64,000 bases of DNA from Escherichia coli. Its GTDB lineage: Bacteria > Pseudomonadota > Gammaproteobacteria > Enterobacterales > Enterobacteriaceae. Location of the stretch: NCBI RefSeq assembly GCF_003019035.1, contig NZ_CP027447.1; one strand, written 5' to 3'. Shown here piece by piece: positions 24,613-41,548 of this stretch. The notes beneath the pieces were generated by a model. The model did not search any database. It had not been told where the DNA came from and worked only from the letters and a program-made list of their open reading frames with translations. Position numbers and translations under genes: made by a program. Position 1 is the stretch's first letter, and every line of letters begins with the position of its first letter.

Positions 24613-24660
24613 GGTGTTTGGGTGAGTTAATGGGTGAATGTGATGAATGTGCGTGCTGAT

Positions 24661-24770: not shown

Positions 24771-24790
24771 AAAAGCGCGCACAGAGCGAC

Positions 24791-25720
24791 TCACGTCAGC
24801 AGCGAAAATGCTGACAGCAGCGGCTCTGCCGCACATAACGACTGGAGCTGCTGGCGAATCGCCGCAGCATTTTCACTCTCTCGCCAGCGTTCAAACACCG
24901 CAAAAAGGGCGAAAATATCCTCCTTCCGCAGCGGTGAACCATCCAGCGTCCATAAACTGATTAACGTGCGGATGAGATAAAAATCACACACCAGCGGGCA
25001 ATAATCTGCTCCGTCTGCCTGCCCAATCACGTCGTGATAAACGCGGTAAATCAGCCAGTTGCGCATCATCCACGGCGCGGCGGCAAAATGCTGTTGCCAG
25101 GTGGTTTGCCACTGCACCTTAAGCTGCTGTTGCAACAAAGCTTCGCTGTTGGCGTCATGCAACGTCAGCAAAGTCACCTGCAACGGTAGCGAGGCTTTGC
25201 GCGGGCTTTCCGGCAAAATCGACCAGTCAAACGCAAAACTCCCGAGCAGCGTCACCAGTTGGCGCGCCAGTTGTGGCACGGGTGGGAGTTGGGCGAACTG
25301 TGCCTGTAGCGTGCCTTTTTGTGCATGATCCCCCAGCGCCTGTGGCAGCGTTGTCAAGCGGGCAAGAATATCTCCGTCTCTGCCCGGCATTTTACTGGCG
25401 CGGGAGAGCAAAATCCCGACGGCATACAGGGAAAGCTCCGGGGTTAAATCGGGGAGCGTAAGGGTACTCAAAATTATCTGGTTGACTATCGCATCGCGCG
25501 CGGATAGCTCGGCGGCATTGTCTTCCACAGGGCGGTAGGTGAGCTGTAAATCAAAGGCCCTGGCATCGTTGAGCACCGCTTTGCAACTTTCAATATCGGT
25601 CAATGCCAGGCTCTGGCGAATCTCATTCTTCCAGACCTTGCGGACGTACAAAGGCGAATCGGGATATTGCGTCATAAAATTGCGCACGTATTCCGGTTCG
25701 TAACATTCAATAAAACTCAT
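24791..25720 (-). CDS. Hypothetical protein (309 aa) in the Flag-2 variable/modification region
   Basis: Long ORF co-oriented with lfgN and the transferase gene; no motif I can assign; start chosen at the first ATG (ORF-track start is TTG). Confidence 0.6.
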   Translation of the reverse strand: MSFIECYEPEYVRNFMTQYPDSPLYVRKVWKNEIRQSLALTDIESCKAVLNDARAFDLQLTYRPVEDNAAELSARDAIVNQIILSTLTLPDLTPELSLYAVGILLSRASKMPGRDGDILARLTTLPQALGDHAQKGTLQAQFAQLPPVPQLARQLVTLLGSFAFDWSILPESPRKASLPLQVTLLTLHDANSEALLQQQLKVQWQTTWQQHFAAAPWMMRNWLIYRVYHDVIGQADGADYCPLVCDFYLIRTLISLWTLDGSPLRKEDIFALFAVFERWRESENAAAIRQQLQSLCAAEPLLSAFSLLT

Positions 25721-25847
25721 AGGTGGCTTCCAGTCTTTATTACTTTGCGGAATGTGCAATAAGCGTGCCGGGAATTTTTGTAATCAAAAACAAGGGATTG
25801 AGAATCAGGCGGAAAATCCGTTTCCGCGATGGGGGAAGGAATTGTCG

Positions 25848-26276
25848 TTATTCCTGGTACAGAAAATCTGCTTCGCCGCCTAAAAAAGACTGAATAAATT
25901 CATACTGGCGAATCAACAGCTCGCCGTTTTTGTCGTTGTAGGCTTTGCAGCGTTCCGCTTTTTGCTCAAGGCGTTGCCACAACTGTTGTGCTGCTGCTTT
26001 TTGCACAGCCGGAAGCCAGGCAAAAACCTGCGCCAGACCGTCACGATTTACACTGACATTGAGCATTTTCAGCAGGCTGTGTCGCTGATGGCTATGCCCA
26101 TGCAACTGCTCATAGTGATGTGTTATCTCGTCGTTTACCGCCAGCAGATCTTCGCTGGCGCGGCGAATCATGCAGATCCGCTGACGCTGGAGAAGTTCGC
26201 GCAGGGAATCGTACAGTGCGTCGTCGTCACGAATGCCCTGCAACAACGCCTTCACCTGTTGTAACCGGATACTCAC
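25848..26276 (-). CDS. lfgN: Flagellar export chaperone FlgN homologue
   Basis: 142-aa helical ORF downstream of the flgM homologue. Confidence 0.75.
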   Translation of the reverse strand: MSIRLQQVKALLQGIRDDDALYDSLRELLQRQRICMIRRASEDLLAVNDEITHHYEQLHGHSHQRHSLLKMLNVSVNRDGLAQVFAWLPAVQKAAAQQLWQRLEQKAERCKAYNDKNGELLIRQYEFIQSFLGGEADFLYQE

Positions 26277-26288
26277 TTCATCGGCCTC

Positions 26289-26567
26289 TTAGTTCTGGAA
26301 AAAACTCAGCATGTCGCTGGCTAACTGTTCGGTGTCCACTTGCAGGCTGCCGGACGCCAGCATCGCTTGCATTTGCGCCACTTTGTCGCTGTCGATATCG
26401 CTCTCTTGCTGGTCGTTCAGCGTTTGCTGGGCAGACTGCAATCCCGCCTGGGTAATGTCGTCGGCGCTCAGCGTCGTGGCGGTGGTCGCCGTGCTTTTGC
26501 GCGGCTGACTGGAGCCTGCCATTGTGGCTGTCGGGCGATTGCCTGGCATCGTCGGGGTGATTTTCAT
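26289..26567 (-). CDS. lfgM: Anti-sigma28 factor FlgM homologue
   Basis: 92-aa ORF with FlgM-like C-terminal helices (...KVAQMQAMLASGSLQVDTEQLASDML...). Confidence 0.8.
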   Translation of the reverse strand: MKITPTMPGNRPTATMAGSSQPRKSTATTATTLSADDITQAGLQSAQQTLNDQQESDIDSDKVAQMQAMLASGSLQVDTEQLASDMLSFFQN

Positions 26568-26647
26568 CGCAACCTCGTCTCGGTATTTGGGTGGGTTACT
26601 CCGGTAAAGCGGTTAACAGGCGGCAAAACTTTAATCGCCTGCGCAAA

Positions 26648-27406
26648 TTACTCCGCGCTTACCGTCGTCACCACGCCGCTTTCTGCCACCATTGCGCTGA
26701 TGACCCGCTGGCTGCTGGCGTTACGTACTTTCACCATCTCGCCTTTGCGGCCATTTTTCAGCGCCACGCCGGGCATCGAGGCGGTGATCCCCGCGCTCTG
26801 GTAAACAATCATCACCGGCTCATCGCGTTCGACCAGCACTGGCGAAACCAGCTCTTCTTTGGTGATTGGTCTGCCCGGTTGCAACGCGTGCTTACTGCTG
26901 AAACCAATTGCGTCATCGAGCTCCATCAGCACATCCCGCCGCTGGGCGCTGACGTTGTAGGGCTTCAGCTCCACATCATTTGCCGTGAGCGGCGTATCGC
27001 GGGCAATCAGTGACTTTGCCATCACCACCGGCACCAGAACATCCGGGCGCACCGCGACGTTCATCTGCCAGCTTTGCGGGCAACTGACGGTGAAGTTCAT
27101 CCGGTTAAGGGCGATTTCCGCAGGCGACGTCAGCGTGACGCCGGGTGACGTTGTACAGGGCGCGGCGGTCGCAATCTGCGACGGAATATAGACCTTAAAG
27201 GTGTAGCGATAGTCATGCCATTGCCGCTGCTGCGCCAGCGATTCAATTTTTTGGCTCGCGGCATTCAGTACCTGGGCGTTGATTTGTTCCCGCGCGCTAT
27301 GTTGCACGGGATGGACGGCGGCGTAGCCCGGTAAGGCCAGCGCCAGGAGGAAATAAAACTTCCGCCTGCAAAATTGAAAACTCATAAACCCTTTCTCATC
27401 AGTCAC
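26648..27406 (-). CDS. lfgA: Flagellar P-ring assembly chaperone FlgA homologue
   Basis: 252-aa ORF with signal peptide, divergent from the flgB operon. Confidence 0.8.
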   Translation of the reverse strand: MTDEKGFMSFQFCRRKFYFLLALALPGYAAVHPVQHSAREQINAQVLNAASQKIESLAQQRQWHDYRYTFKVYIPSQIATAAPCTTSPGVTLTSPAEIALNRMNFTVSCPQSWQMNVAVRPDVLVPVVMAKSLIARDTPLTANDVELKPYNVSAQRRDVLMELDDAIGFSSKHALQPGRPITKEELVSPVLVERDEPVMIVYQSAGITASMPGVALKNGRKGEMVKVRNASSQRVISAMVAESGVVTTVSAE

Positions 27407-27414
27407 TTAAAAAT

Positions 27415-27430
27415 TGGCACAGCGATTGCA
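27415..27430 (+). promoter_or_regulatory. Sigma54 (-24/-12) promoter upstream of lfgB
   Basis: TGGCAC-AGCGA-TTGCA, exact match to TGGCAC-N5-TTGCW. Confidence 0.7.
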
Positions 27431-27466
27431 TAGCGTATGCGGATTGAAGCAGGAGTGACGCAGGAA

Positions 27467-27802
27467 ATGGGGATCAGTTTTCAGCAGGCATTGGGAGTAC
27501 ATCCGCAGGCAGTGAAGTTACGTCTTGAGAGGACCGAGCTACTGACTGCGAATCTGGCGAATGTCGATACGCCAAATTTCAAGGCTAAAGATATTGATTT
27601 TGCCAGGGAGATGCAACGGGCAAATAACGCGGCGGTGGATGTCCAGTACCGCGTGCCGATGCAGCCGTCAGAAGATGGCAACACCGTGGAACTGAACAGC
27701 GAACAGGCACGGTTTTCACAAAATAGTATGGATTATCAAAGCAGTCTGACCTTTCTGAATCTGCAAATCAGCGGCATCAGAGAGGCCATTGAAGGGAAAT
27801 AA
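27467..27802 (+). CDS. lfgB: Flagellar basal-body rod protein FlgB homologue
   Basis: ...LLTANLANVDTPNFKAKDIDF... rod-protein N-terminal motif; start set downstream of the predicted sigma54 transcription start (ORF track 27437). Confidence 0.8.
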   Translation: MGISFQQALGVHPQAVKLRLERTELLTANLANVDTPNFKAKDIDFAREMQRANNAAVDVQYRVPMQPSEDGNTVELNSEQARFSQNSMDYQSSLTFLNLQISGIREAIEGK

Positions 27803-27804
27803 GC

Positions 27805-28236
27805 ATGTCATTTACTGATATCTATCAGATTTCCGGCTCGGCGATGACGGCGCAAACGCTACGTCTGAATACCGTCGCCAGTAACCTGGCGAATGCTAAT
27901 GCACCTGCCGGCAGCGAGGCGCAGGCGTATAAAGCGCGCAGCCCGGTGTTTGCGGCGGTGTATCACCACAGCTTGCTGGTGGGTACACATCGTCATGCCA
28001 TTGATGGTGCCAGCGTGCAGGTGCAGGACGTGCTGCAAACCGGCGGGGCGGTGAAACGCTATGAACCGCATTCGCCGCTGGCGGATGCTAACGGGGATGT
28101 CTGGTATCCCGACGTCAACGTGGTGGAACAGATGGCGGACATGATGTCGGCCTCGCGCGATTTTGAAACCAATGTCGATGTGCTCAACAACGTGAAAAGT
28201 ATGCAGCAAAGCCTGCTGAAACTGGGAGAAGCCTGA
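27805..28236 (+). CDS. lfgC: Flagellar basal-body rod protein FlgC homologue (uninterrupted)
   Basis: 143-aa ORF with rod-protein N-terminal (...ASNLANANA...) and C-terminal motifs. Confidence 0.85.
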   Translation: MSFTDIYQISGSAMTAQTLRLNTVASNLANANAPAGSEAQAYKARSPVFAAVYHHSLLVGTHRHAIDGASVQVQDVLQTGGAVKRYEPHSPLADANGDVWYPDVNVVEQMADMMSASRDFETNVDVLNNVKSMQQSLLKLGEA

Positions 28237-28949
28237 TGAATACCCTGGCGCTGAATGCGCAATCGCCGCAGCCGACCGCCACGGCGGAAAGCAACAACGT
28301 GGCGGCCAGCGACACGCAAAGTAGCAGCGATAGCTCGCCCGTCGATACCTTCCTGACGCTGTTTGTCGCTGAGATCCAAAACCAGGACCCGACCGACCCG
28401 ACCGACGCCACCGAATATATCGACCAGCTTTCGTCAATGGCGCAGGTGGCGATGATGGAAGAGATGAGCGTGCAGGCGAATACCAACGCGGTGTTGATGA
28501 GCAACATTCAGGTGATGGCGCTCGGCAACCTGGTGGGCGACGACATTATGGTGCAGACCACCGCCTTGCAGGTGAGTGACCAGACCATTAACGGTCGCGC
28601 CACGCTTGACGACGCCTGTACCACCGCCGATCTCCACTTTACCGATGCCGCAGGCGATGACTATACGGTGTCGCTGATCCCGGAAGGGAGTTCGTCCGTC
28701 GGGCCAGGCCAGGTGGATTTCTCGGTGAATCCCGCGGATTACGGTATCCCGCCGGGTGATTACGACGTCTCGGTGGTCACCAACACCGGGGAAGAAGAGG
28801 TGCCGATTGAAGTCTCCGGCGAAGTGGAAGATGTGCGCATCCCGCTCGACGGCAGCTCTCCGGTGCTCAATGTTGCAGGTGTAGGCGAAGTGCCGTTCAC
28901 CATGATTAGCCAGTTTGGCGTACCCGATGCCGACAGTGATGTGGCGTAA
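28236..28949 (+). CDS. lfgD: Flagellar hook cap/assembly protein FlgD homologue
   Basis: 237-aa ORF between the flgC and flgE homologues. Confidence 0.8.
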   Translation: MNTLALNAQSPQPTATAESNNVAASDTQSSSDSSPVDTFLTLFVAEIQNQDPTDPTDATEYIDQLSSMAQVAMMEEMSVQANTNAVLMSNIQVMALGNLVGDDIMVQTTALQVSDQTINGRATLDDACTTADLHFTDAAGDDYTVSLIPEGSSSVGPGQVDFSVNPADYGIPPGDYDVSVVTNTGEEEVPIEVSGEVEDVRIPLDGSSPVLNVAGVGEVPFTMISQFGVPDADSDVA

Positions 28950-28971
28950 GAACAATTAACAGGAAGAAACA

Positions 28972-30174
28972 ATGAGTTATGAAATTGCCGCAACGGGGCT
29001 GAATGCCGTTAACGAACAGCTGGACGGGATCAGTAACAACATCGCCAACGCCGGAACGGTAGGCTATAAGTCGATGACCACCCAGTTTTCAGCCATGTAT
29101 GCCGGAAGTCAGGCGATGGGCGTCAGCGTGGCAGGCACCGCGCAAAGTATTTCGCGCGGCGGTTCGCTGGTATCCACCGGTAACGCGCTGGATCTGGCGA
29201 TTAACGACGACGGTTTTTTTGTTACCTGCGACAGCGCGGGCAACATTTCTTATACCCGCGCCGGATCGTTTGAAACCGACAAAAACGGCTATATCGTCAA
29301 CGCCTCAGGCGCTTATTTGCAGGGCTATCCGGTCGATGACACGGGCACCCTGCAAACCGGTACAGTCACCGATATCCAGATCAAAACTGGCAATATTCCG
29401 GCGCAGGCCAGCAGCAGCCTGACCTTTACCGCCAACTTCGATGCCAGCGACGACGCTATCGACCGCACTACCGTACCGTTCGACGCGACCAACAGCAGCT
29501 CGTACACCGACAGCTACACCACCACGGTGTACGACTCATTAGGCAACGAACATTCGGTATGCCAGTACTTCACCAAAACCAGCGACAACACCTGGGAAGT
29601 GCAGTACACCTTCGACGGTCAGCAGCAGACCGGCGTTCCAGCGACGACGTTAACCTTCGACCCGAACACCGGGAAGCTGACTTCGCCAACTACGCCGCAG
29701 ACCATTGAATTTCAGACCGACGCCGCCGCACCCATCGACTTAACCGTCGATTACTCCACCTGTACGCAATACGGTTCTGAATTTTCTGTCACCACCAACG
29801 CCGCCGACGGCTACGCCTCCGCGACTCAGAACGGTGTGCAGGTCGATGACGATGGCAAAGTTTACGCCACCTACAGCAACGGCGAGCGCATGTTGCAGGG
29901 CCAGGTGGTGCTGGCGACTTTCCCTAACGACGACGGCCTGCAAGCCGTAAGCGGTACCGCGTGGGTACAAACCGGGGAATCCGGCACGCCACTGATTGGT
30001 GTTCCCGGTTCCGGAACCTGCGGCACGCTCACGTCGGGAGCGCTTGAGAGCTCTAACGTCGATATTACCAGCGAACTGGTTAACCTGATGACCGCCCAGC
30101 GTAACTATCAGGCCAACACCAAAGTGATCGCCACCAGCACGCAGCTCGATGACGCGCTGTTCCAGGCAATGTAA
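28972..30174 (+). CDS. lfgE: Flagellar hook protein FlgE homologue
   Basis: 400-aa ORF with conserved axial-protein N and C termini (...LVNLMTAQRNYQANTKVI...). Confidence 0.9.
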   Translation: MSYEIAATGLNAVNEQLDGISNNIANAGTVGYKSMTTQFSAMYAGSQAMGVSVAGTAQSISRGGSLVSTGNALDLAINDDGFFVTCDSAGNISYTRAGSFETDKNGYIVNASGAYLQGYPVDDTGTLQTGTVTDIQIKTGNIPAQASSSLTFTANFDASDDAIDRTTVPFDATNSSSYTDSYTTTVYDSLGNEHSVCQYFTKTSDNTWEVQYTFDGQQQTGVPATTLTFDPNTGKLTSPTTPQTIEFQTDAAAPIDLTVDYSTCTQYGSEFSVTTNAADGYASATQNGVQVDDDGKVYATYSNGERMLQGQVVLATFPNDDGLQAVSGTAWVQTGESGTPLIGVPGSGTCGTLTSGALESSNVDITSELVNLMTAQRNYQANTKVIATSTQLDDALFQAM

Positions 30175-30911
30175 TGGATCGCTTGATTTATACCGCCCTG
30201 AGCGGGGCTTCTCAGACGTTGTATGAGCAGCAGATTAGCGCCAACAACCTGGCGAACGTCAACACCAACGGTTTTCGCGCCGATATGGCAATGGCGACCA
30301 ATGACAAGGTGAAAGGCGGCGGCTTCGACACTCGCTATATGGCGCAGGAAGGGGCCAGCGGCGTGAACGACAGCACGGGTGCGGCGGAGAAAACCGAACG
30401 CCCGCTGGACGTGGCGATTCAGGGCGCGGGTTACATTGCGGTGCAGGATAAAAACGGCAACGAAGTCTATACCCGCAACGGCAACATTCAGCAGGACGAC
30501 CAGGGGCAACTGACCATCGACGGCAATCTGGTGCTGGGGGATAACGGGCCGATCATTCTGCCGCCGAACGCTATTGCTTCGTTTGGCAGCGACGGCACGC
30601 TGTCGGTGACGCCCGATGACGGCGACGTGACCGCGACGATGGATATCGACCGCCTGAAGCTGGTGGATATTCCGGTTGCTAACCTGGCGAAAAATCCTGA
30701 AGGGATGCTGATAACGGCGGATGGCGTTCCGGCCCAGCGCGATGAAAACATCAAAGTCAGCGGCGGTTTTCTCGAAGGCAGCAACGTCTCGGCGGTGAGC
30801 GAAATGATGTCGTCCATCGCCATGAATCGCCAGTTTGAAGCGCAGATCAAGATGATGAAAACCGCCGAAGATATCAGCGACGCGGGCAACCGCTTATTGC
30901 GCGGCTCGTAA
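30174..30911 (+). CDS. lfgF: Flagellar basal-body rod protein FlgF homologue
   Basis: 245-aa rod-family ORF. Confidence 0.85.
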   Translation: MDRLIYTALSGASQTLYEQQISANNLANVNTNGFRADMAMATNDKVKGGGFDTRYMAQEGASGVNDSTGAAEKTERPLDVAIQGAGYIAVQDKNGNEVYTRNGNIQQDDQGQLTIDGNLVLGDNGPIILPPNAIASFGSDGTLSVTPDDGDVTATMDIDRLKLVDIPVANLAKNPEGMLITADGVPAQRDENIKVSGGFLEGSNVSAVSEMMSSIAMNRQFEAQIKMMKTAEDISDAGNRLLRGS

Positions 30912-30921
30912 CCGCACATCG

Positions 30922-30957
30922 TAGGCCGGATAAGGCGTTCACGCCGCATCCGGCAAC
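30922..30957. repeat. REP (repetitive extragenic palindromic) element
   Basis: GTAGGCCGGATAAGGCGTTCACGCCGCATCCGGCAA. Confidence 0.8.
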
Positions 30958-30989
30958 TGCGGCCCAAAAATAACACGGAATTTACCACC

Positions 30990-31775
30990 ATGAACGCAGC
31001 ACTATGGATCAGCAAAACCGGCCTCTCGGCGCAGGATGCTGAAATGAGCGCGATTGCCAACAACATCGCCAACGTTAACACCACCGGCTTCAAGCGCGAT
31101 CGGGTGATGTTTCAGGATCTGTTCTACCAGACCCAGGAAGCGCCGGGCGCGATGCTCGACCAGAACAACATCATGCCGACCGGGCTGCAATTCGGGAGCG
31201 GCGTACGCATTGTCGGTACCCAGAAAACCTTCACCGAAGGCAACGTTGAGACCACCGACAACGCGATGAATGTCGCCATTATGGGGCAGGGATTTTTGCA
31301 GGTGCAAAAGGCCAACGGCGATATCGCCTATACCCGCGATGGCAACTTACAGGTGAACGCCGACGGCGTACTGACCAACTCGCAGGGCTTGCCGTTGCAG
31401 CCGGAAATCGACGTTCCGGCGGGGGCGACCAACGTTGCGTTTGGTGAGGACGGCACGGTGACGGCGATCTTACCCGGCGACAGCGATGTGACCGAGTTAG
31501 GGCAACTGACACTGGTGAACTTCGCTAACCCGGCGGGGCTCTCCGCCGAGGGCGACAACCTGTATCTGGAAACCGCTGCCAGCGGTCAGCCGACCGAAGG
31601 CGTACCGGGCGAAGATGGGCTTGGCACCTTGCAGGATAACGCGCTGGAAGGATCGAACGTGGATATCGTCAACGAGATGGTGGCGATGATTACGGTGCAA
31701 CGCGCGTACGAGATGAACGCCAAAATGGTCTCGGCGGCAGACGATATGTTGCAGTACATCAGTCAGACGCTGTAA
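30990..31775 (+). CDS. lfgG: Flagellar distal rod protein FlgG homologue
   Basis: 261-aa rod-family ORF. Confidence 0.9.
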   Translation: MNAALWISKTGLSAQDAEMSAIANNIANVNTTGFKRDRVMFQDLFYQTQEAPGAMLDQNNIMPTGLQFGSGVRIVGTQKTFTEGNVETTDNAMNVAIMGQGFLQVQKANGDIAYTRDGNLQVNADGVLTNSQGLPLQPEIDVPAGATNVAFGEDGTVTAILPGDSDVTELGQLTLVNFANPAGLSAEGDNLYLETAASGQPTEGVPGEDGLGTLQDNALEGSNVDIVNEMVAMITVQRAYEMNAKMVSAADDMLQYISQTL

Positions 31776-31793
31776 GGCCGAAATGTCGGATGC

Positions 31794-31825
31794 GACGCTG
31801 ACGCGTCTTATCCGACCTACAAGAG
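31794..31825. repeat. REP-like palindromic element inside the lfgG-lfgH spacer
   Basis: GTCGGATGCGACGCTGACGCGTCTTATCCGAC. Confidence 0.7.
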
Positions 31826-31857
31826 CACATAACTCACTGTATTTAAACAGGCAGAAC

Positions 31858-32523
31858 GTGAAAAATTATCTCTGGCTGGTGGCGCTGCTTCCCCTGCTTA
31901 GCGGGTGTGAATCGCAGGCCATTCTGGTCAAAAAAGACGACGCATACTTTGCGCCACCAACCACCGAAGCGCCGCCTCCGGCAGACGGGCGTGCCGGGGG
32001 CGTGTTTGAAACCGGCTACAACTGGTCGCTAACCGCCGACCGGCGGGCTTACCGCGTGGGCGATATCCTGACGGTGATCCTCGAAGAATCCACCCAGTCG
32101 AGCAAACAGGCGAAAACCAACTTCGGCAAAAGCAACACCGTTGATATCGGCGCGCCGACCATTTTTGGGCACACCAAAGATAAGCTTTCCGGCTCTATCG
32201 ACGCCAACCGCGACTTTGACGGCAGCGCCACTTCCCAGCAGCAGAACAGCCTGCGTGGGGAGATCACTGTTTCCGTCCATGCGGTGCAGCCTAACGGTAT
32301 TCTCGAAATTCGCGGCGAGAAATGGCTCACCCTCAACCAGGGCGATGAGTACATCCGCTTAAGCGGCCTGGTACGCGCCGACGACATCCAGAACGACAAC
32401 TCGGTTTCCTCTCAGCGGATCGCCGATGCCCGCATCTCCTATGCCGGACGCGGCGCGTTAAGCGACGCCAACGCCGCAGGCTGGTTGACGCGGCTGTTTT
32501 ACCATCCTCTGTTCCCGATTTAA
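31858..32523 (+). CDS. lfgH: Flagellar L-ring lipoprotein FlgH homologue (probable GTG start; ORF-track start at 31783 lies in the REP element)
   Basis: Lipoprotein signal ...LLPLLSGC followed by FlgH family sequence. Confidence 0.8.
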
Positions 32524-32537
32524 TGCCGGAGAGTGCA

Positions 32538-33638
32538 ATGCAAAACTGGATAAAGGCCGCAGCGATCGCTGTAAGTCTGACGCTGCCCGGCGTGGCGCTG
32601 GCGCAATCGCTGGAGTCGCTGGTCAACGTACAAGGTGTGCGTGAAAACCAACTGGTCGGCTACAGCCTGGTGGTCGGCCTTGACGGCACGGGTGATAAAA
32701 ACCAGGTCAAATTTACCAACCAGACCATCACCAATATGTTGCGCCAGTTTGGCGTGCAACTGCCGAATAAAATCGACCCGAAAGTGAAAAACGTCGCCGC
32801 GGTAGCGGTGAGCGCCACGCTGCCGCCGATGTACTCGCGCGGGCAGACCATCGATGTCACTGTTTCGTCGATTGGCGATGCTAAAAGTATTCGTGGCGGC
32901 ACTTTGTTGCTGACCCAGTTGCACGGCGCGGATGGCGAAGTTTATGCGCTGGCGCAGGGCAGCGTGGTGGTGGGCGGGATGAATGCCACCGGGGCCAGCG
33001 GTTCGAGCGTAACGGTTAATACGCCAACCGCCGGGTTAATTCCTAACGGCGCAACGGTAGAGCGCGAGATCCCCAGCGATTTTCAGATGGGCGACACTAT
33101 CACCCTCAACCTGAAACGTCCGTCGTTTAAAGATGCCAACAATATTGCGGCGGCGATTAACGCCTCGTTTGGCGGCATTGCTACTGCGCAGAGCTCTACC
33201 AACGTCAGCGTGCGCGCGCCCACCAGCCCCGGCGCGCGGGTGGCATTTATGTCGCAACTGGATGATGTACAGGTGCAGGCAGAGAAAATCCGCGCCCGTG
33301 TGGTGTTTAACTCGCGTACCGGCACGGTGGTGATGGGCGATGGCGTTGCGCTGCACGCGGCGGCGGTGTCGCACGGCAGTTTGACCGTCTCGATTAACGA
33401 AACCAGCAACGTCAGCCAGCCGAATGCCTTTGCGAGTGGGCGCACGACGGTAACGCCGCAGAGCAATATCGCGGTGAATCATGCCCGTCCGGGCGTGGTG
33501 AGTTTGCCGGAGTCGAGCAGCCTGAAAACGCTGGTCAATGCGTTGAACAGTTTGGGCGCGACGCCGGACGACATTATGTCGATTTTACAGGCGCTGCATG
33601 AGGCGGGCGCGCTGGATGCCGACCTGGAGGTGATCTGA
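32538..33638 (+). CDS. lfgI: Flagellar P-ring protein FlgI homologue
   Basis: Signal peptide plus FlgI family sequence; start at MQNWIK. Confidence 0.9.
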
Positions 33639-33937
33639 TGAAAGTGAACGCCAGCGGCGGGATTGATGGCAGCGATGCGTTAATGGGGCCGAAGGTTCAG
33701 GCCAATGATATTAAGCAGGCCGCGGAGCAGTTTGAGGCGATTTTTTTACGCAACATGCTGAAAGAGATGCGTAAAACCAACGAGTTGTTCGATTCGAAAG
33801 ATAACCCATTTAACAGCGATTCGGTGCGCATGATGCAGGGGTTTTATGACGATGAGTTGTGTAACACCCTGGCGCAGCAGCACGGGATTGGGATTGCGGC
33901 GATGATTGTGAAGCAGTTGTCGCCGAAGGGGAAATGA
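33638..33937 (+). CDS. lfgJ: FlgJ-like rod-binding domain protein (99 aa, no muramidase domain)
   Basis: Matches the N-terminal rod-binding part of FlgJ (...QAAEQFEAIFLRNMLKEMR...); ORF ends before any glucosaminidase domain. Confidence 0.75.
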   Translation: MKVNASGGIDGSDALMGPKVQANDIKQAAEQFEAIFLRNMLKEMRKTNELFDSKDNPFNSDSVRMMQGFYDDELCNTLAQQHGIGIAAMIVKQLSPKGK

Positions 33938-33950
33938 GGGGCGCGCTTTG

Positions 33951-34060
33951 CCCCTCACCCTAACCCTCTCCCCAAAGGGGCGAGGGGACCGATTGAGCGC
34001 GGAGGTGAATATGGCGCAGGTTTTCGCCCTCTCCCTGTGGGAGAGGGCCGGGGTGAGGGC
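33951..34060. repeat. Two GC-rich hairpin repeat units (33951-33987 and 34026-34060) between lfgJ and lfgK
   Basis: CCCTCTCCCC-AAA-GGGGCGAGGGG and CCCTCTCCC-TGT-GGGAGAGGGCCGGGGTGAGGG; same family as 5193. Confidence 0.6.
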
Positions 34061-34142
34061 ATCAGCGCGCACCATTATCCACTTAAGAATCCCCATCTTC
34101 ACGCCGCTTTTAACCGGCACGATTTACCGGTAAGGATCCAAC

Positions 34143-35519
34143 ATGGACATGATTAACATCGGCTACAGCGGCGCATCAACCGCGCAGGTAGAGCTGAACG
34201 TCACGGCGCAAAACACCGCCAACGCCATGACCACGGGCTACACCCGTCAGGTGGCGGAGATCAGCACCATCGGCGCCAGCGGTGGTTCGCCGAACAGCGC
34301 CGGTAACGGCGTGCAGGTCGACAGCATTCGCCGCGTCTCTAACCAGTATCAGGTGAATCAGGTGTGGTATGCCGCCAGCGATTACGGCTATTACAGCACC
34401 CAGCAGGGGTATCTCACGCAACTGGAAGCGGTACTGAGCGACGATAACAGCAGCCTGAGCGGCGGCTTCGATAACTTCTTCGCCGCCCTTAACGAAGCGA
34501 CCACCAGCCCCGATGATTCCGCCCTGCGCGAACAGGTGATCAGCGAAGCCGGGGCGCTGTCGTTGCGTATCGACAACACGCTGGATTACATCGACTCGCA
34601 AAGCACGGAAATCATCAGCCAGCAGCAGGCGATGGTGTCGCAAATCAACACGCTCACCAGCGGTATCGCCAGCTATAACCAGCAAATCGCCCAGGCTGAA
34701 GCCAACGGTGATAATGCCTCCGCGCTGTATGACGCCCGTGACCAGATGGTGGAAGAGCTTAGCGGGATGATGGATGTGCAGGTCAATATCGACGACCAGG
34801 GCAACTACAACGTCACCCTGAAAAACGGTCAGCCGCTGGTGAGCGGGCAACAAAGCTCGACCATCGCGCTGGAAACCAACGCCGACGGTACGCCGACCAT
34901 GTCGCTGACGTTCGCTGGCACCACCTCGACGATGACTACCGACACCGGCGGTTCATTAGGCGCACTGTTTGATTATCAAAACGACGTGCTGACGCCGCTG
35001 ACCGACACCATCAACAGCATGGCGTCGCAGTTTGCCGATGCGGTCAACAATCAACTGGTGCAGGGCTACGATCTCAACGGTAACCCCGGCGAGCCGCTGT
35101 TTATTTACGATGCCAGCAATGCCGATGGCCCGCTGACCGTTAACCCGGATATCACCGCCGATGAACTGGCGTTCTCCAGTTCGCCGGATGAAAGCGGCAA
35201 CAGCGACAACCTCCAGGCGCTGATCAATATCTCCACCGAACCGCTGGAGATAGCCAACCTTGGCAGCGTGACGGTCGGGCAGGCGTGCTCGTCAATCATC
35301 AGCAATATCGGCATTTACAGTCAGCAAAATCAGACGGAAGTCGATGCCGCGTCCAATGTCTATTCCGCAGCGCAAAACCAGCAGAGTAGCGTCAGCGGCG
35401 TCAGCATGGACGAAGAAGCGGTGAACCTGATCACCTATCAACAAATTTATGAAGCTAATCTGAAAGTCATTTCCGCCGGGGCCGAGATTTTCGATTCGGT
35501 GCTGGAAATGTGCAGCTAA
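34143..35519 (+). CDS. lfgK: Hook-associated protein 1 FlgK homologue
   Basis: 458-aa ORF with axial-protein N-terminus (...GYSGASTAQVELNVTAQNTANA...). Confidence 0.85.
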   Translation: MDMINIGYSGASTAQVELNVTAQNTANAMTTGYTRQVAEISTIGASGGSPNSAGNGVQVDSIRRVSNQYQVNQVWYAASDYGYYSTQQGYLTQLEAVLSDDNSSLSGGFDNFFAALNEATTSPDDSALREQVISEAGALSLRIDNTLDYIDSQSTEIISQQQAMVSQINTLTSGIASYNQQIAQAEANGDNASALYDARDQMVEELSGMMDVQVNIDDQGNYNVTLKNGQPLVSGQQSSTIALETNADGTPTMSLTFAGTTSTMTTDTGGSLGALFDYQNDVLTPLTDTINSMASQFADAVNNQLVQGYDLNGNPGEPLFIYDASNADGPLTVNPDITADELAFSSSPDESGNSDNLQALINISTEPLEIANLGSVTVGQACSSIISNIGIYSQQNQTEVDAASNVYSAAQNQQSSVSGVSMDEEAVNLITYQQIYEANLKVISAGAEIFDSVLEMCS

Positions 35520-35533
35520 GCGGGAGCGCGAAA

Positions 35534-36463
35534 ATGCGAGTAACCACCCAACAAACCTACGTCTCGATGACGCAAAGTTTTAATAATCTCTCCGGCTCTC
35601 TGGCGCATGTGGTCGAGCAGATGGCAACCGGCAAGGAAATTTTGCAGCCGTCGGATGACCCGATCGCCGCCACGCGTATCACCCAGTTGAACCGCCAGCA
35701 GTCGGCGATTGAGCAGTATCAAAGCAATATTGACTCTGCGTCGGCGGGGTTAAGCCAGCAGGAGTCGATTCTCGATGGCGTCAACAACAGCCTGCTGGCG
35801 GTGCGCGACGACCTGCTGGAAGCGGCGAACGGCACCAATACCGCTGATTCGCTCGCAAGCCTCGGGCAGGATATTCAGTCGCTCACCGAATCGATGGTGG
35901 CGGCGCTCAATTATCAGGACGAAGACGGGCATTACGTGTTTGGCGGTACCATCAACGATCAGCCGCCGATTGTGGCGGTGGACGATGATGGCGATGGCGT
36001 GACCGACAGCTATAGCTATCAGGGCAACAGCGACCACCGCCAGACCACGGTGTCGAACGGCGTGGAAGTGGATACCAACGTGGCGGCGAGCGATTTCTTC
36101 GGCAGCAATTTAGATGTGCTCAACACGCTCAATTCGCTCTCTCAGGAGTTGCAAGACCCAAACGTTGACCCGGCCGATCCGCAGGTGCAGAGCGATATTC
36201 AGAACGCCGTTGATGTGGTGGACACCGCTTCGGACGATCTCAACGCCTCGATTGCGTCGCTTGGCGAGACGCAGAACACCATGTCGATGCTGAGCGATGC
36301 GCAGACCGATATTTCTACCTCTAATGATGAGTTGATTGGTTCTTTACAGGATCTCGATTACGGCCCGGCGTCGATCACCTTTACCGGACTGGAAGTGGCA
36401 ATGGAAGCTACCCTCAAGACTTACTCGAAAGTGAGTGAGTTGAATTTATTCAGCGTTCTCTAA
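35534..36463 (+). CDS. lfgL: Hook-associated protein 3 FlgL homologue
   Basis: 309-aa flagellin-like junction protein; start at MRVTTQQ. Confidence 0.8.
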   Translation: MRVTTQQTYVSMTQSFNNLSGSLAHVVEQMATGKEILQPSDDPIAATRITQLNRQQSAIEQYQSNIDSASAGLSQQESILDGVNNSLLAVRDDLLEAANGTNTADSLASLGQDIQSLTESMVAALNYQDEDGHYVFGGTINDQPPIVAVDDDGDGVTDSYSYQGNSDHRQTTVSNGVEVDTNVAASDFFGSNLDVLNTLNSLSQELQDPNVDPADPQVQSDIQNAVDVVDTASDDLNASIASLGETQNTMSMLSDAQTDISTSNDELIGSLQDLDYGPASITFTGLEVAMEATLKTYSKVSELNLFSVL

Positions 36464-36479
36464 CTCTTTCAGGAACCGT

Positions 36480-37457
36480 ATGCAGGTCGGACTTACTTCT
36501 TCGTCACTCACCACCGGCGGCGCGCATAGCGCTGCGGTATCGTCGTCAACCGTTGCGCCCACTCAGGCGGTGCGGCAAAAACTCCCGGCGACGGCGAGTG
36601 AATATCCGGCCTCGCCGCTGATTACCACTCGCCCGCAGCGTTACAGTGTGCAGCTTAACGATCAGCTCACCACGTTGCAGCAGGCGGATCACTATCTCGG
36701 GCAACTGGAACAGCAGTTGCTCGATTACCGTCACAGCCAGCGTAAGGGCGGGCAGGCGCAGAGTTCAGCGCTGATGCAGATGCTGGACAAACGCACCGCG
36801 CTTTCCGGCGGCGCGGTGGACCGCCAGTTGCAGCCAGTGTTGCAGGGGGAAGCGCGGGTGACTTTTCACTCGCCGGATCTGACGAATCTGGTACACAATC
36901 CCACGCCGGGAACGCGCATGTTCAGTGTCACTGGCGGGCGGCAGACCCAGCTTTCGGCGGTGATGCTGTCTGAGGATGACAGCGCCGCGCAGTATCAGAC
37001 GCGGCTGACCAACGCTCTGCGCCGCGTGGGTGTGCAACTGCATCAGCAAGCGGACGGCATCAGCTTCTCCACCACTGAAAAACAGTGGCCCCATATCGAG
37101 CGCACCTTAAGCGTGCGCACCGATGGCGATAAGTCGGCGTTTATGCCGCTGAAAACCTTTGCCGAACCGTCACAGGCGGACCGCTTAGCGCAAAGCCTGC
37201 AACAAGGCGGGGCGGGAATTTCTCAAATGCTGGAAAACATTAATCAGCAGCGCGCGCAAATGGCGGTGCAGCAGGAAAAAGCGCGGCAGTTGATCGACGG
37301 CATGTCCCGCTTCCCGCAAACGGAAAGCGCCGTGCAGGCGTCGGAAAATCTCGGCGGCGTGCTGGATAGCGCCAATCATAACTATCAAGTTTTATTGCAG
37401 GCGGTGAACGGTCAGGCACGGATTTCCAGCCAGACGGTGAGGAGTTTATTGGGGTAG
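36480..37457 (+). CDS. lafW: Hypothetical Flag-2 protein (325 aa), no recognisable family
   Basis: Ser/Thr/Gln-rich ORF in the position given as lafW in the Flag-2 nomenclature as I recall it. Confidence 0.6.
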   Translation: MQVGLTSSSLTTGGAHSAAVSSSTVAPTQAVRQKLPATASEYPASPLITTRPQRYSVQLNDQLTTLQQADHYLGQLEQQLLDYRHSQRKGGQAQSSALMQMLDKRTALSGGAVDRQLQPVLQGEARVTFHSPDLTNLVHNPTPGTRMFSVTGGRQTQLSAVMLSEDDSAAQYQTRLTNALRRVGVQLHQQADGISFSTTEKQWPHIERTLSVRTDGDKSAFMPLKTFAEPSQADRLAQSLQQGGAGISQMLENINQQRAQMAVQQEKARQLIDGMSRFPQTESAVQASENLGGVLDSANHNYQVLLQAVNGQARISSQTVRSLLG

Positions 37458-37547
37458 TGTTATTGAAAATCAATCAAATGAGGCTGTTGTAAAAAATCAT
37501 TTCAGTGCAGAATATGCTATAACTCTACGGGTTAAAAAAGGAATGAA

Positions 37548-37691
37548 ATGACCACTCTCAAGCAACTGATGGATAAGCAAAGCCCTGAAAGTCGTAGGCG
37601 AATAATAAAAAAAGCAGAACGAATCCGGCAAACTATCATTAATAAAAAGCTAGAGTTACCAATAACTAAAACTATCAGCAATTCCGATTGA
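37548..37691 (+). CDS. Possible small ORF (47 aa, basic)
   Basis: ATG with AAGGA RBS 5 nt upstream; MTTLKQLMDKQSPESRRRIIKKAERIRQ...; AT-rich with rare codons, so may not be translated. Confidence 0.25.
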   Translation: MTTLKQLMDKQSPESRRRIIKKAERIRQTIINKKLELPITKTISNSD

Positions 37692-37710
37692 TTTCATTCG
37701 GGATTTTCGT

Positions 37711-37746
37711 TGGCCGGATAAGACGCGTTTAGCGTCGCATCCGGCA
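37711..37746. repeat. REP element
   Basis: GGCCGGATAAGACGCGTTTAGCGTCGCATCCGGCAT. Confidence 0.8.
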
Positions 37747-37760
37747 TATATTGGCACTCG

Positions 37761-38603
37761 TCAGCATTTCTGCACAGTATTTAACAACTTCTCTAAATTC
37801 TGATACATCGCGCGATTAATATCGCTGTTCTGCCAGCCTTCCACATTAAAAGTTAATTGCCAGCTACCATTGCACTGGTTGCGCAGAACAATATCACTTT
37901 CCAGTCGGTTACGAACATATTTATAATAAGTTGTCATTGTCATATTATGCGCTGACAATAAATTATCGAGTTTGTCTTTTCCTGGTTCGAGGGTTTGTGA
38001 CAGTAACGGTACGGAATTATTTTCCTTTCCAGAACTAAGATGAAATATTTTTATTCTTGGACTGTTAATTGACTCTTTTACCAGTTGCGGGGCGTCAGGT
38101 GTACTTTTCAAGTGTGAATACCCCACGGTCGAGCCAATAAATATAACAGCCGCGGTCAACGCTAACCCCATCAGTCCTTTATGTTTTTTTCTAACTGGTA
38201 CAGGCGGTGTTGTCGAAGATATCTCTTCTGACACAGTTTCCTGTACCTGGTCGGTAATCATCAGCTTTTCCGCAGGCGATAACTCCGGCAAAGACACATA
38301 CTCTTTATTGCACAAGTAACCTTTCTTCGGAATTGTTTTAATAATGTTCTGTTGTTTGCCATCATCGTCGATAGCAACGCGTAACGCATGGATCGCCGTC
38401 GGCAGGCTGTTACCGCCGACTATGCGGTTCTTCCATACTTCGGCACATAAATAAGATCGCGATAAAACCACATCGGCATTTTTTGCTAATGTTTCCAGCA
38501 AAATAAAATGGTATTCGCCGAGACGACGTGTTTCACCCGTTTCGCAATGTATTAAGGCATTAAGCGACGGGTCCATCCGCCAGTTGTTGATAATAATACT
38601 CAT
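37761..38603 (-). CDS. lafZ: ToxR/CadC-like membrane-anchored transcriptional regulator (N-terminal winged-helix domain, one TM helix, periplasmic C-terminal domain)
   Basis: Winged-helix core ...LSRSYLCAEVWKNRIVGGNSLPTAIHALRVAID...; hydrophobic segment GLMGLALTAAVIFIGSTVGY; gene is markedly AT-rich. Confidence 0.75.
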   Translation of the reverse strand: MSIIINNWRMDPSLNALIHCETGETRRLGEYHFILLETLAKNADVVLSRSYLCAEVWKNRIVGGNSLPTAIHALRVAIDDDGKQQNIIKTIPKKGYLCNKEYVSLPELSPAEKLMITDQVQETVSEEISSTTPPVPVRKKHKGLMGLALTAAVIFIGSTVGYSHLKSTPDAPQLVKESINSPRIKIFHLSSGKENNSVPLLSQTLEPGKDKLDNLLSAHNMTMTTYYKYVRNRLESDIVLRNQCNGSWQLTFNVEGWQNSDINRAMYQNLEKLLNTVQKC

Positions 38604-39089
38604 AGTTGAGTTTACCTTAGCAAGGGATAAATGTTTCCTGATAGTGCTTTGCATAAAGCACAGTCTTATACGTCCCTGAGAAGATGATTTTTCTGCGTGA
38701 TAATTAATATTTTATGGTAATAGGATTATTCTTAATCACTATATGGCGTGGAAATGTAACGAAATGACAGGACAGGTACAATAGCCAAATGTGTACTATT
38801 TGCAACGCAATGTAAATTTTGGCATCAGTACATTGAGAACAAAACGCGATAATTGATGACAATCTTAACTATATCAAGCATTTGATAAAGACATATTTTG
38901 ATACCTGGCCATGTGGCAGATATTGCTAATAATCTTTTTATCTGAATTTAAACTCTGCTTTTTTTTAGCTAAAAGTGGCATCGGATAATACGTGGCGAAA
39001 AAATTTTAACGGCGATTTTAAGTTTGCTCCTGAGGTGTCGTTTTTACAGGGTATCGAAACGAAAACGATTAATCCCAAGGAGCAGTATC

Positions 39090-40004
39090 ATGTTATCTAT
39101 TAACACCAATAACGCCTCAATGGCCGCCGTTAATGCAATCAGCAAAAGCAGCTCTTCTCTGTCTACATCTATGGAACGCCTGGCAACGGGTAACCGGATT
39201 AACTCTTCTGCCGATGACGCAGCGGGCAAACAAATTGCTAACCGTCTGACAGCACAGTCCAGCGGTATGGGTGTGGCGCTGAGCAACATCAATGATGCCA
39301 CCGCGATGCTGCAAACCGCCGACAGCATGTTCGACGAAATGTCTGATGTGCTGGGTCGTATGAAAGACCTGTCAACTCAGGCAGCGAACGGCACCTACAG
39401 CGACGACGATCTACAGGCGATGCAGGACGAATACGACGAACTGGGTCAGCAGATGTCTGACATGCTGCAAAACACCACTTACGGCGGCACCAACCTGTTC
39501 GGTGTTTCCGGTACCAGCAACACCGGTACTGACGGTCTGTTCCAGAGCGCAGTAACTTTCCAGGTGGGCGCGGAATCTTCCGACACCATGACCGTGAATA
39601 TTTCAAGCCAGCTGAATACCCTGGTGACGGATCTTTCTGCTATCAGCAACTCCTTCAGTGCGGATCAGGCTGACACCACTGGCACCGCAGGCGTTTCTGG
39701 CGGTACTGAGCTGACTGCGTCTGGCTCGGCTAACCAGATGATTACCAGCATTTCGACCGCGATGGATGATGTTTCGCAGATCCAATCCAAGCTGGGTGCG
39801 TCTATTAACCGTCTGAACGACACTGCCAACAACCTGACCAGCATGCAGGACAACACCGAAGTCGCTATCGGTAACATTATGGATACCGACTACGCGACGG
39901 AAGCGTCCAACATGACTAAACAGCAGGTGCTGATGCAGACCGGCATCACCATGCTGAAACAGTCCAACAGCATGTCCAGCATGGTTTCCAGCCTGCTGCA
40001 GTAA
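39090..40004 (+). CDS. lafA: Lateral flagellin
   Basis: 304-aa ORF with flagellin N-terminus (MLSINTNNASMAAVNAI...RLATGNRINSSADDAAG) and C-terminus (...MTKQQVLMQTGITMLKQSNSMSSMVSSLLQ); AGGAG RBS. Confidence 0.9.
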   Translation: MLSINTNNASMAAVNAISKSSSSLSTSMERLATGNRINSSADDAAGKQIANRLTAQSSGMGVALSNINDATAMLQTADSMFDEMSDVLGRMKDLSTQAANGTYSDDDLQAMQDEYDELGQQMSDMLQNTTYGGTNLFGVSGTSNTGTDGLFQSAVTFQVGAESSDTMTVNISSQLNTLVTDLSAISNSFSADQADTTGTAGVSGGTELTASGSANQMITSISTAMDDVSQIQSKLGASINRLNDTANNLTSMQDNTEVAIGNIMDTDYATEASNMTKQQVLMQTGITMLKQSNSMSSMVSSLLQ

Positions 40005-40014
40005 TGGCGGACTT

Positions 40015-40045
<31 letters not shown>

Positions 40046-40162
40046 ACGAACAACACCGCCTGCGGGCGGTGTTGTGCTTTCTGCGGCAGGCGTATTTCCG
40101 CCAGACCGGAAATGGCTTTTCCGCCTGTTTTTCAATCTATTGATTCTTCACATAAAAAATAT

Positions 40163-40177
40163 TGGCACGCCTTTTGC
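40163..40177 (+). promoter_or_regulatory. Sigma54 (-24/-12) promoter upstream of lafB
   Basis: TGGCAC-GCCTT-TTGC, about 30 bp upstream of the lafB start. Confidence 0.7.
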
Positions 40178-40209
40178 CAATAACCTGACATCGTTATCCG
40201 GAGTCATCA

Positions 40210-41526: not shown

Positions 41527-41548
41527 CTCAGAAGGAATATCCCTAAAG

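What the first reader, a model, noticed from the sequence alone, without database searches (positions are those of the whole stretch)
33638..33937. FlgJ homologue has only the rod-binding domain; no peptidoglycan hydrolase is encoded in the locus
The 99-aa ORF matches the N-terminal rod-capping domain but stops before any glucosaminidase domain. I see no lytic transglycosylase or muramidase among the other Flag-2 genes. The lateral system therefore either borrows a housekeeping enzyme or uses one encoded elsewhere.
Basis: partly seen in the sequence, partly recalled or inferred. Interest (0 to 1): 0.35.

Follow-up and report, generated by a model that had tools for sequence, protein, structure and literature searches.

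The report
Lateral-flagellum FlgJ without a wall-cutting domain
The second (lateral, Flag-2) flagellar gene cluster of this E. coli encodes a 99-residue FlgJ that keeps only the rod-capping part and has no cell-wall-cutting enzyme anywhere in the cluster, a known kind of arrangement that here is old, conserved and probably served by a housekeeping lytic transglycosylase.

Summary
ORF 33638-33937 (+) encodes a 99-aa protein whose only domain is Pfam Rod-binding (E 3e-14). It lies between lfgI and lfgK in an intact 42-gene Flag-2 locus (8533-46328).

None of the 42 products carries an SLT, GH73, NlpC/P60 or lysozyme domain. Dedicated SLT and GH73 HMMs find nothing in the six-frame translation. 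LafW folds like a flagellin or hook-associated protein. The 309-aa ORF is LafV, a FliB-like methylase. No gap exceeds 372 bp.

The short LfgJ is not a recent truncation. All 27 Enterobacterales Flag-2-type loci examined have a 97-131-aa rod-binding-only protein, and dN/dS is 0.05-0.13.

The C-terminal enzyme domain varies within the lateral-flagellum family:
- GH73 in Plesiomonas.
- None in Photobacterium and Vibrio chagasii.
- An Slt70-like SLT domain in the Pseudomonas/Cellvibrionaceae clade, which is sister to Flag-2.

That fusion points to a family-1 lytic transglycosylase acting in trans; this is inferred, not shown. The adjacent yafL is a core E. coli gene, not Flag-2 cargo.

This is a new member of the known single-domain FlgJ class, of modest interest.

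The parts
33638..33937 (+). lfgJ: a 99-aa single-domain FlgJ homologue (rod-binding / rod-cap domain only)
   Evidence: ORF. Pfam PF10135 E 3e-14, no other domain. NCBIfam matches only the N-terminal part of the FlgJ models. Orthologues of 97-131 aa occur in all Enterobacterales Flag-2 loci examined. dN/dS 0.05-0.13.
32523..33638 (+). lfgI, the P-ring protein, immediately upstream and translationally coupled to lfgJ
   Evidence: Pfam FlgI E 7e-134. Its stop codon overlaps the lfgJ start.
33938..34142 (.). lfgJ-lfgK spacer (205 bp) holding a GC-rich imperfect palindromic repeat. It is not a remnant of an enzyme domain.
   Evidence: Inverted repeat 33938-33972 / 34039-34073. Copies of the element occur at 14958-14981 and 24748-24771 and are dispersed in E. 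coli genomes. No GH73 or SLT HMM hit in any frame.
34143..35519 (+). lfgK, hook-associated protein 1, downstream neighbour
   Evidence: Pfam FlgK_D1 E 7e-64.
8533..46328 (.). Complete Flag-2 (lateral flagellar) locus, lfhA to lafU, 42 intact ORFs, no peptidoglycan hydrolase
   Evidence: Pfam scans. PGAP annotation of the 97.8% identical E. coli PD23 locus. HMM negatives. Gap and signal-peptide survey.
36480..37457 (+). lafW, a 325-aa axial (flagellin / hook-associated-like) protein, not a hydrolase
   Evidence: No Pfam or NCBIfam hit. AF2 model pLDDT 72. Foldseek top 11 PDB hits are flagellins, E 1e-6 to 3e-4.
24791..25720 (-). lafV, the '309-aa ORF': a FliB-like flagellin lysine N-methylase homologue, cytoplasmic, not a hydrolase
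7626..8435 (+). yafL, an NlpC/P60 (C40) peptidase flanking the locus. It is context only, a core E. coli gene and not part of Flag-2.
   Evidence: Pfam NLPC_P60 E 3e-33. Present in 5384/5426 complete E. coli genomes against 1218 for the Flag-2 core.

Best explanation
LfgJ is the rod cap/scaffold of the lateral (Flag-2) flagellum. It is exported through the Flag-2 type III apparatus and sits on the growing rod, but it carries no enzyme. The hole in the peptidoglycan is made in trans by a Sec-exported housekeeping lytic transglycosylase encoded outside the locus. The most likely candidate is a family-1 (Slt70-like) enzyme that LfgJ and/or the rod proteins recruit or locally activate, as FlgJ does with SltF in Rhodobacter sphaeroides.

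Shown here:
- the domain content of LfgJ;
- the absence of any hydrolase in the locus;
- the conservation and purifying selection on LfgJ;
- the SLT fusion in the sister clade.

Inferred: that an enzyme is recruited at all, and which enzyme it is.
For: 1. LfgJ has only a rod-binding domain, and the locus has no hydrolase.

2. The state is ancient and maintained. Twenty-seven Enterobacterales Flag-2-type loci and many protein clusters have a 97-134-aa rod-binding-only LfgJ. dN/dS against Pseudocitrobacter is 0.05, against Citrobacter youngae 0.07, and against others 0.10-0.24.

3. In a concatenated FlgC/E/F/G/H/I neighbour-joining tree (1560 columns, 100 bootstraps), Flag-2 is sister, with 100% support, to a Pseudomonas/Saccharophagus/Cellvibrionaceae lateral clade. 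The FlgJ of that clade is Rod-binding plus SLT (PF01464, E 6e-24; motif QQESAG...GLMQLMP...AYNAGPG). This is a gene fusion linking the same rod-binding domain (47% identical to LfgJ) to a lytic transglycosylase.

4. The fused SLT domain is closest to the catalytic domains of P. aeruginosa Slt (E 5e-27) and E. coli Slt70 (E 7e-19).

5. There is precedent. Single-domain FlgJ works with the separate lytic transglycosylases SltF (R. sphaeroides) and BB0259 (Borrelia) and interacts with them (PMC7277832; PMC8517470).
Against: No experiment or interaction prediction links LfgJ to any E. coli lytic transglycosylase. The fusion argument is indirect, and the fusion could be a lineage-specific innovation.

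No separate SLT gene is found within 10 kb of lfgJ in any single-domain lateral locus. There is therefore no dedicated partner to point to.

LfgJ (99 aa) is shorter than the 151-residue minimal functional N-terminal region reported for Salmonella FlgJ (Hirano 2001, as cited in PMC6913195).

It is not established that Flag-2 builds flagella in E. coli. For strain 042 it was judged inactive (PMC6993521).
Confidence: 0.5

Rival explanations
1. No dedicated or recruited enzyme is needed. The lateral rod passes through transient openings made by general peptidoglycan turnover, and LfgJ only caps the rod.
For: No hydrolase is encoded in or near any single-domain lateral locus. The enzyme domain was lost at least twice in the lateral family without replacement, in Photobacterium and in the Flag-2 / V. 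chagasii lineages. From my memory of Hirano et al. 2001 (not re-read here), Salmonella FlgJ lacking muramidase activity still allows some flagellation.
Against: The peptidoglycan mesh is narrower than the rod, and systems with single-domain FlgJ that have been tested do depend on a lytic transglycosylase (Borrelia BB0259, R. sphaeroides SltF). The sister clade acquired an SLT domain on FlgJ, which implies selection for local lysis.
Confidence: 0.2
2. The GH73 domain of the primary (Flag-1) FlgJ, encoded elsewhere in the chromosome, opens the wall for Flag-2 rods as well.
For: E. coli strains with Flag-2 normally also carry Flag-1, whose FlgJ is dual-domain (established knowledge). The two rod-binding domains are homologous (TIGR02541 E 1e-18).
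Against: Budvicia aquatica, Pragia fontium and Tatumella ptyseos are reported to lack flag-1 yet have flag-2 and flagellar motility (PMC6993521). The Budvicia (L025, 106 aa) and Tatumella (P0274, 124 aa) LfgJ are rod-binding-only. FlgJ acts at the tip of its own rod after export through its own apparatus, and the two systems have separate regulators (LafK, LafS).
Confidence: 0.07
3. The adjacent NlpC/P60 endopeptidase YafL is the Flag-2 wall-opening enzyme.
For: yafL lies 98 bp from lfhA and has a confident NlpC/P60 domain.
Against: yafL is in 99% of complete E. coli genomes, while the Flag-2 core is in 22%. It flanks the insertion point and is present in strains that never had, or have deleted, the locus. 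It is transcribed convergently with lfhA rather than in a flagellar operon. Known flagellar wall enzymes cut glycan strands (GH73, SLT), and so does the fused domain in the sister clade.
Confidence: 0.05
4. The question is moot in E. coli. Flag-2 does not build a wall-spanning flagellum here because it is silent, decaying or used for another purpose, so no hydrolase is required.
For: Flag-2 function in E. coli is undemonstrated. Strain 042 has a frameshift in lfgC, and most E. coli have deleted the locus (PMC6993521; PMC4578781).
Against: In this window all 42 ORFs are intact, including lfgC (143 aa, full Pfam matches). The L- and P-ring genes lfgH and lfgI, which only make sense for an envelope-spanning rod, are intact. 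lfgJ is under strong purifying selection. Flag-2-only taxa are motile.
Confidence: 0.1
5. A cryptic hydrolase is hidden in one of the unassigned Flag-2 proteins (LafV, LafW, LafD).
For: LafW and LafD have no Pfam or NCBIfam family. LafV has only a sub-threshold FliB match. The LafV model has no significant solved-structure neighbour.
Against: LafW is flagellin-like. LafV aligns to FliB and has no signal peptide. LafD is a 117-aa helical protein in the position of FliT. There are no SLT or GH73 HMM hits, and none of these proteins has a Sec signal.
Confidence: 0.03

Closest known systems
Single-domain FlgJ with a separate flagellar lytic transglycosylase (R. sphaeroides FlgJ + SltF; Borrelia FlgJ + BB0259; alpha-, delta- and epsilon-proteobacteria, Nambu et al. 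2006)
   Same: FlgJ is reduced to the rod-binding/scaffold domain, so wall cleavage must come from another protein.
   Different: R. sphaeroides encodes SltF inside the flagellar flgG operon. Here no SLT gene lies in the locus or, in related loci, within 10 kb of lfgJ. The host is a gamma-proteobacterium whose primary system has the dual-domain FlgJ. LfgJ is also unusually short (99 aa).
Canonical dual-domain FlgJ of Salmonella/E. coli Flag-1 (rod-binding + GH73 beta-N-acetylglucosaminidase; TIGR02541)
   Same: Homologous N-terminal rod-binding region (TIGR02541 E 1e-18 over model positions 20-90). Same gene position between flgI and flgK.
   Different: The whole GH73 domain and the linker are absent. 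The score of 67.9 bits is far below the 193-bit cutoff.
Rod-binding + SLT fusion FlgJ of lateral-type loci in Pseudomonas (P. chengduensis, P. alcaliphila, P. indica and others), Saccharophagus and Cellvibrionaceae
   Same: It is the sister clade of Flag-2 by concatenated rod/hook/ring phylogeny (100% bootstrap). The locus type is the same, with a LafW-like gene and short FlgK/FlgL. The rod-binding domain is 47% identical.
   Different: It carries a C-terminal Slt70-like SLT domain, which LfgJ lacks.
Plesiomonas shigelloides lateral FlgJ (328 aa)
   Same: Lateral flagellar cluster with the same gene order, in an Enterobacterales host (PMC4481668).
   Different: It retains rod-binding + GH73. 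Its cluster groups with the Photobacterium lateral systems rather than with Flag-2.

Membership tests
Single-domain (rod-binding only) FlgJ | Pfam Rod-binding domain above the gathering score | tested here: met
   PF10135, 53.7 bits against 25.1, E 3e-14
Single-domain (rod-binding only) FlgJ | No C-terminal peptidoglycan-hydrolase domain (GH73, SLT, M23) | tested here: met
   The protein ends 6 residues after the domain. No GH73 or SLT signal downstream in any frame.
Single-domain (rod-binding only) FlgJ | Encoded in a flgB-L type operon between flgI and flgK | tested here: met
Single-domain (rod-binding only) FlgJ | Exported by the flagellar type III system and acts as rod cap/scaffold | not testable with these tools
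   Inferred from homology only
Dual-domain FlgJ (TIGR02541, rod assembly protein/muramidase) | Whole-protein score at or above the curated cutoff | tested here: not met
   67.9 bits against 193; only model positions 20-90 of 294 matched
Dual-domain FlgJ (TIGR02541, rod assembly protein/muramidase) | GH73 glucosaminidase domain with catalytic glutamates | tested here: not met
   No PF01832 hit; GH73 HMM negative on the window
FlgJ + SltF two-protein system (R. sphaeroides type) | A dedicated Sec-exported SLT-domain protein encoded in the flagellar locus | tested here: not met
   No SLT domain in the 42 ORFs. SLT HMM negative in six frames. No unassigned signal-peptide protein.
FlgJ + SltF two-protein system (R. 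sphaeroides type) | Physical interaction of FlgJ with the lytic transglycosylase | not testable with these tools
   Needs pull-down, two-hybrid or a complex prediction
Enterobacterial Flag-2 locus | Marker genes lafK, lafW and lafZ, and the lfh/lfi/lfg/laf gene order between yafL and dinB | tested here: met
   markers as defined in PMC6993521

The most novel reading that the evidence does not exclude
The rod-binding domain of lateral-family FlgJ is a docking module for Slt70-type lytic transglycosylases. In Pseudomonas lateral systems the two are fused. In Flag-2 the 99-aa LfgJ recruits the housekeeping Slt70 (or another family-1 enzyme) to the rod tip. If so, how single-domain FlgJ systems target wall lysis becomes directly testable with E. 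coli genetics.
Probability: 0.3. Interest if true: 0.45.

Novelty: new member of a known kind. Interest (0 to 1): 0.3.

Why it matters
How envelope-spanning machines open the cell wall locally without killing the cell is only partly understood. Single-domain FlgJ systems are the cases where the enzyme has to be found.

Flag-2 offers such a case in the best genetic model organism, where every lytic transglycosylase is known and deletable. The fused rod-binding + SLT protein in the sister clade serves as a guide to the likely partner.

The result also corrects annotation. Several database names ('peptidoglycan hydrolase', 'lateral flagellar peptidoglycan hydrolase') are attached to proteins and short NCBIfam models that contain no hydrolase domain.

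The gain is incremental, not conceptual.

Tried and rejected
- Ren et al. 2005 (the Flag-2 description) and Garcia-Ramos et al. 2018 (SltF phylogeny) are not held in the library. I could not check whether the missing domain was already remarked there. The two large Flag-2 comparative papers never mention FlgJ, peptidoglycan or a wall hydrolase.
- My first 'GH73' HMM turned out to be a mixture of GH73 and SLT C-termini. I rebuilt it as two separate HMMs.
- I tried to establish the length of V. parahaemolyticus LfgJ (VPA0272). Two word-indexed protein searches reached only Photobacterium and V. chagasii, and the literature gave no length. I make no claim about V. parahaemolyticus or Aeromonas.
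- The idea that the lfgJ-lfgK spacer is a decayed enzyme domain is rejected. It consists of dispersed GC-rich repeats, and the spacer and short LfgJ are general in Flag-2.
- No solved structure matches the rod-binding domain by sequence.
- The afdb50 fold library was unavailable.
- Rfam and the promoter/terminator scans of the spacer gave nothing.

Full report
**What is there.** The window is an E. coli chromosome segment. It is 100% identical to strain AR_0077 over 33600-34160 and 97.8% identical to strain PD23 over 30000-38000. It carries a complete Flag-2 (lateral flagellar) locus from lfhA (8533) to lafU (46328), lying between yafL and dinB.

ORF 33638-33937 (+) encodes 99 aa. Its ATG overlaps the lfgI stop codon and is preceded by GGAGG. 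Its only Pfam domain is Rod-binding (PF10135, E 3e-14, aa 42-93), and the protein ends six residues after the domain. The NCBIfam model of the dual-domain FlgJ (TIGR02541) matches only positions 20-90 of 294, at 68 bits against a cutoff of 193. PGAP already names the orthologue 'rod-binding protein'.

**No hydrolase in the locus.**
- I scanned all 42 Flag-2 products against Pfam at E<=0.01. Every one is a recognised flagellar, regulatory or flagellin-modification protein, or has no hit. None has an SLT, GH73, NlpC/P60, lysozyme, amidase or M23 domain.
- Separate HMMs built from the SLT and GH73 C-termini of related FlgJ proteins found nothing in any stop-to-stop ORF of 50 aa or more in six frames of the whole 64-kb window, even at E<=10.
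- The largest intergenic gap is 372 bp. The only products with an N-terminal signal-like segment are LfgA, LfgH, LfgI, LfiP and the known membrane proteins. No unassigned periplasmic protein is left over.

- LafW (36480-37457): an AlphaFold2 model built on 20 homologues (pLDDT 72) matches flagellins. The eleven best Foldseek PDB hits have E 1e-6 to 3e-4 and probability about 1, followed by hook-associated proteins. This agrees with the literature label 'putative hook-associated protein'.

The stated refutation condition is therefore not met.

**The short LfgJ is not a recent truncation.**
- Protein searches return about 100 clusters of 95-134-aa rod-binding-only proteins from Escherichia, Citrobacter, Leclercia, Scandinavium, Dryocola, Pseudescherichia, Buttiauxella, Tatumella and Mangrovibacter.
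- A scan of one genome per species returned 80 loci. In all 27 Enterobacterales Flag-2-type loci the gene between lfgI and lfgK encodes 97-131 aa and lacks an enzyme domain. These loci come from Pseudocitrobacter, Citrobacter, Phytobacter, Leminorella, Enterobacter, Pseudescherichia, Cedecea, Yersinia, Dryocola, Budvicia, Pantoea and one metagenomic locus.
- Pairwise dN/dS of lfgJ is 0.05 against Pseudocitrobacter, 0.07 against C. youngae, and 0.10-0.24 for more distant pairs where dS is near saturation.

The gene is maintained by selection in its short form.

**Plasticity of the enzyme domain in the lateral family.**
- The Pseudomonas, Saccharophagus and Cellvibrionaceae loci recovered in the same scan are of the lateral type. 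They have a LafW-like gene, a short FlgK/FlgL, and LfgG about 61% identical to E. coli's. Their FlgJ is a 350-400-aa fusion of Rod-binding and SLT (PF01464, E 6e-24, with the ES...GLMQ...AYNAG motifs).
- Plesiomonas shigelloides has a lateral cluster of the same gene order whose FlgJ (328 aa) is Rod-binding + GH73.
- The lateral-type FlgJ proteins of Photobacterium (156-169 aa) and V. chagasii have the rod-binding domain only.

I built a neighbour-joining tree of concatenated FlgC/E/F/G/H/I (1560 columns, 100 bootstraps). It gives:
- a lateral clade (100%);
- within it, Plesiomonas + Photobacterium (100%);
- Flag-2 (100%) as sister to the SLT-fusion clade (100% for the pair);
- the V. chagasii-type locus next to that pair (76%);
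- polar/primary outgroups that all carry GH73.

The simplest reading is a GH73-bearing ancestor, at least two losses, and one acquisition of SLT. The loss in Flag-2 predates the radiation of the locus in Enterobacterales.

The tree uses a simple distance method and lacks Aeromonas, V. parahaemolyticus and R. sphaeroides. The number of events is therefore provisional.

**How it most likely works.** By homology, LfgJ is the rod cap/scaffold. A rod with L and P rings (lfgH and lfgI are intact) has to cross the sacculus. In the single-domain systems studied, a separate lytic transglycosylase does the cutting and binds FlgJ: SltF in R. sphaeroides and BB0259 in Borrelia.

Three results here favour the same solution with a housekeeping enzyme:
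- There is no enzyme in the locus.
- The sister clade has fused this very rod-binding domain (47% identity) to an SLT domain. That domain is closest to the catalytic domains of P. aeruginosa Slt and E. coli Slt70 (E 5e-27 and 7e-19).
- Budvicia and Tatumella are reported to lack flag-1 yet be motile with flag-2, and their LfgJ is rod-binding-only. This argues against borrowing the Flag-1 FlgJ muramidase.

I give this explanation 0.5. The main rival (0.2) is that no recruited enzyme is needed at all.

YafL is unlikely to be the enzyme. It is a core gene present in 99% of E. coli genomes, against 22% for Flag-2. It is also an endopeptidase, not a glycan-strand cutter.

**Caveats.**
- At 99 aa, LfgJ is shorter than the 151-residue minimal functional fragment of Salmonella FlgJ. 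A 112-aa Liberibacter FlgJ failed to complement an Agrobacterium mutant.
- Flag-2 function in E. coli itself has not been demonstrated.

**Comparison and novelty.** This is a member of the known class of single-domain FlgJ proteins. Three things differ from the textbook cases: the host (a gamma-proteobacterium whose primary FlgJ is dual-domain), the absence of any dedicated partner gene, and the three-state variation (GH73, SLT, none) within one flagellar family.

The two comprehensive Flag-2 surveys do not discuss the point. I could not read the original 2005 description.

I rate the finding 'new member of a known kind', interest 0.3.

Noticed in passing
L030, L032, L039, L040, L042-L050, L052, L056, L062, L079 (FlgJ at about 9900-11050 of each locus): Lateral-type flagellar loci of Pseudomonas (oleovorans/mendocina-group species, P. 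indica), Saccharophagus and Cellvibrionaceae encode a FlgJ that fuses the rod-binding domain to an Slt70-like SLT lytic transglycosylase domain instead of GH73. I found no description of this in the searchable literature.
   Followed up: partly
window 33938-34073, 14958-14981, 24748-24771: A GC-rich imperfect palindromic repeat (GCCCCTCACCCTAACCCTCTCCCC...) sits in three intergenic spacers of the Flag-2 locus. It is dispersed in E. coli chromosomes (median 5 matching places per genome). The lfgJ-lfgK spacer differs between strains because of it. There is no Rfam match.
   Followed up: partly
L002 14439-14948 (-), L005 13752-14228 (-), L020 13019-13462 (-), and the same position in L006-L026 and L037: Most non-E. 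coli Flag-2 loci have a conserved 148-170-aa ORF with a signal peptide and no Pfam family (motif MGFYDL..S...E.YD in one subgroup). It lies just downstream of lafZ, between lafW and lafZ. It is absent from the window, where 37458-37760 is only 303 bp. Its function is unknown.
   Followed up: partly
L003, L004 (Pseudocitrobacter) versus the window: The Pseudocitrobacter Flag-2 genes are 92-100% identical in protein to E. coli's (LfgB and LfgG 100%, LfgJ 95-97%), but LafZ is only 62-64% identical. This suggests recent intergeneric transfer of the locus with an allelic replacement at lafZ.
   Followed up: no
window 1407-1880, 6039-6779, 7626-8435: Three cell-wall-related core genes lie just left of the Flag-2 insertion point: ivy (inhibitor of vertebrate lysozyme, Pfam E 5e-34), a YkuD L,D-transpeptidase-family gene (yafK position) and yafL (NlpC/P60). 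This is probably coincidental, since yafL at least is present regardless of Flag-2.
   Followed up: partly
NCBIfam NF009349-NF009352 (models of 97-140 positions); UniRef name of the C. rodentium LfgJ (P0023): Short rod-binding-only FlgJ families and proteins are named 'peptidoglycan hydrolase' in some databases although they contain no hydrolase domain. The annotation is misleading.
   Followed up: no
window 27805-28236 and the whole locus 8533-46328: Unlike E. coli 042, which has a frameshift in lfgC, lfgC and all other Flag-2 ORFs here are intact. There is no IS element inside the locus, whereas strain PD23 has ISAs1 and IS3 copies. This copy could therefore be functional.
   Followed up: partly
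window 81-434 and 58558-58630: A DDE transposase fragment lies at the left edge of the window (Pfam E 6e-9), and one tRNA gene lies downstream of proA (Rfam, 71.8 bits).
   Followed up: no
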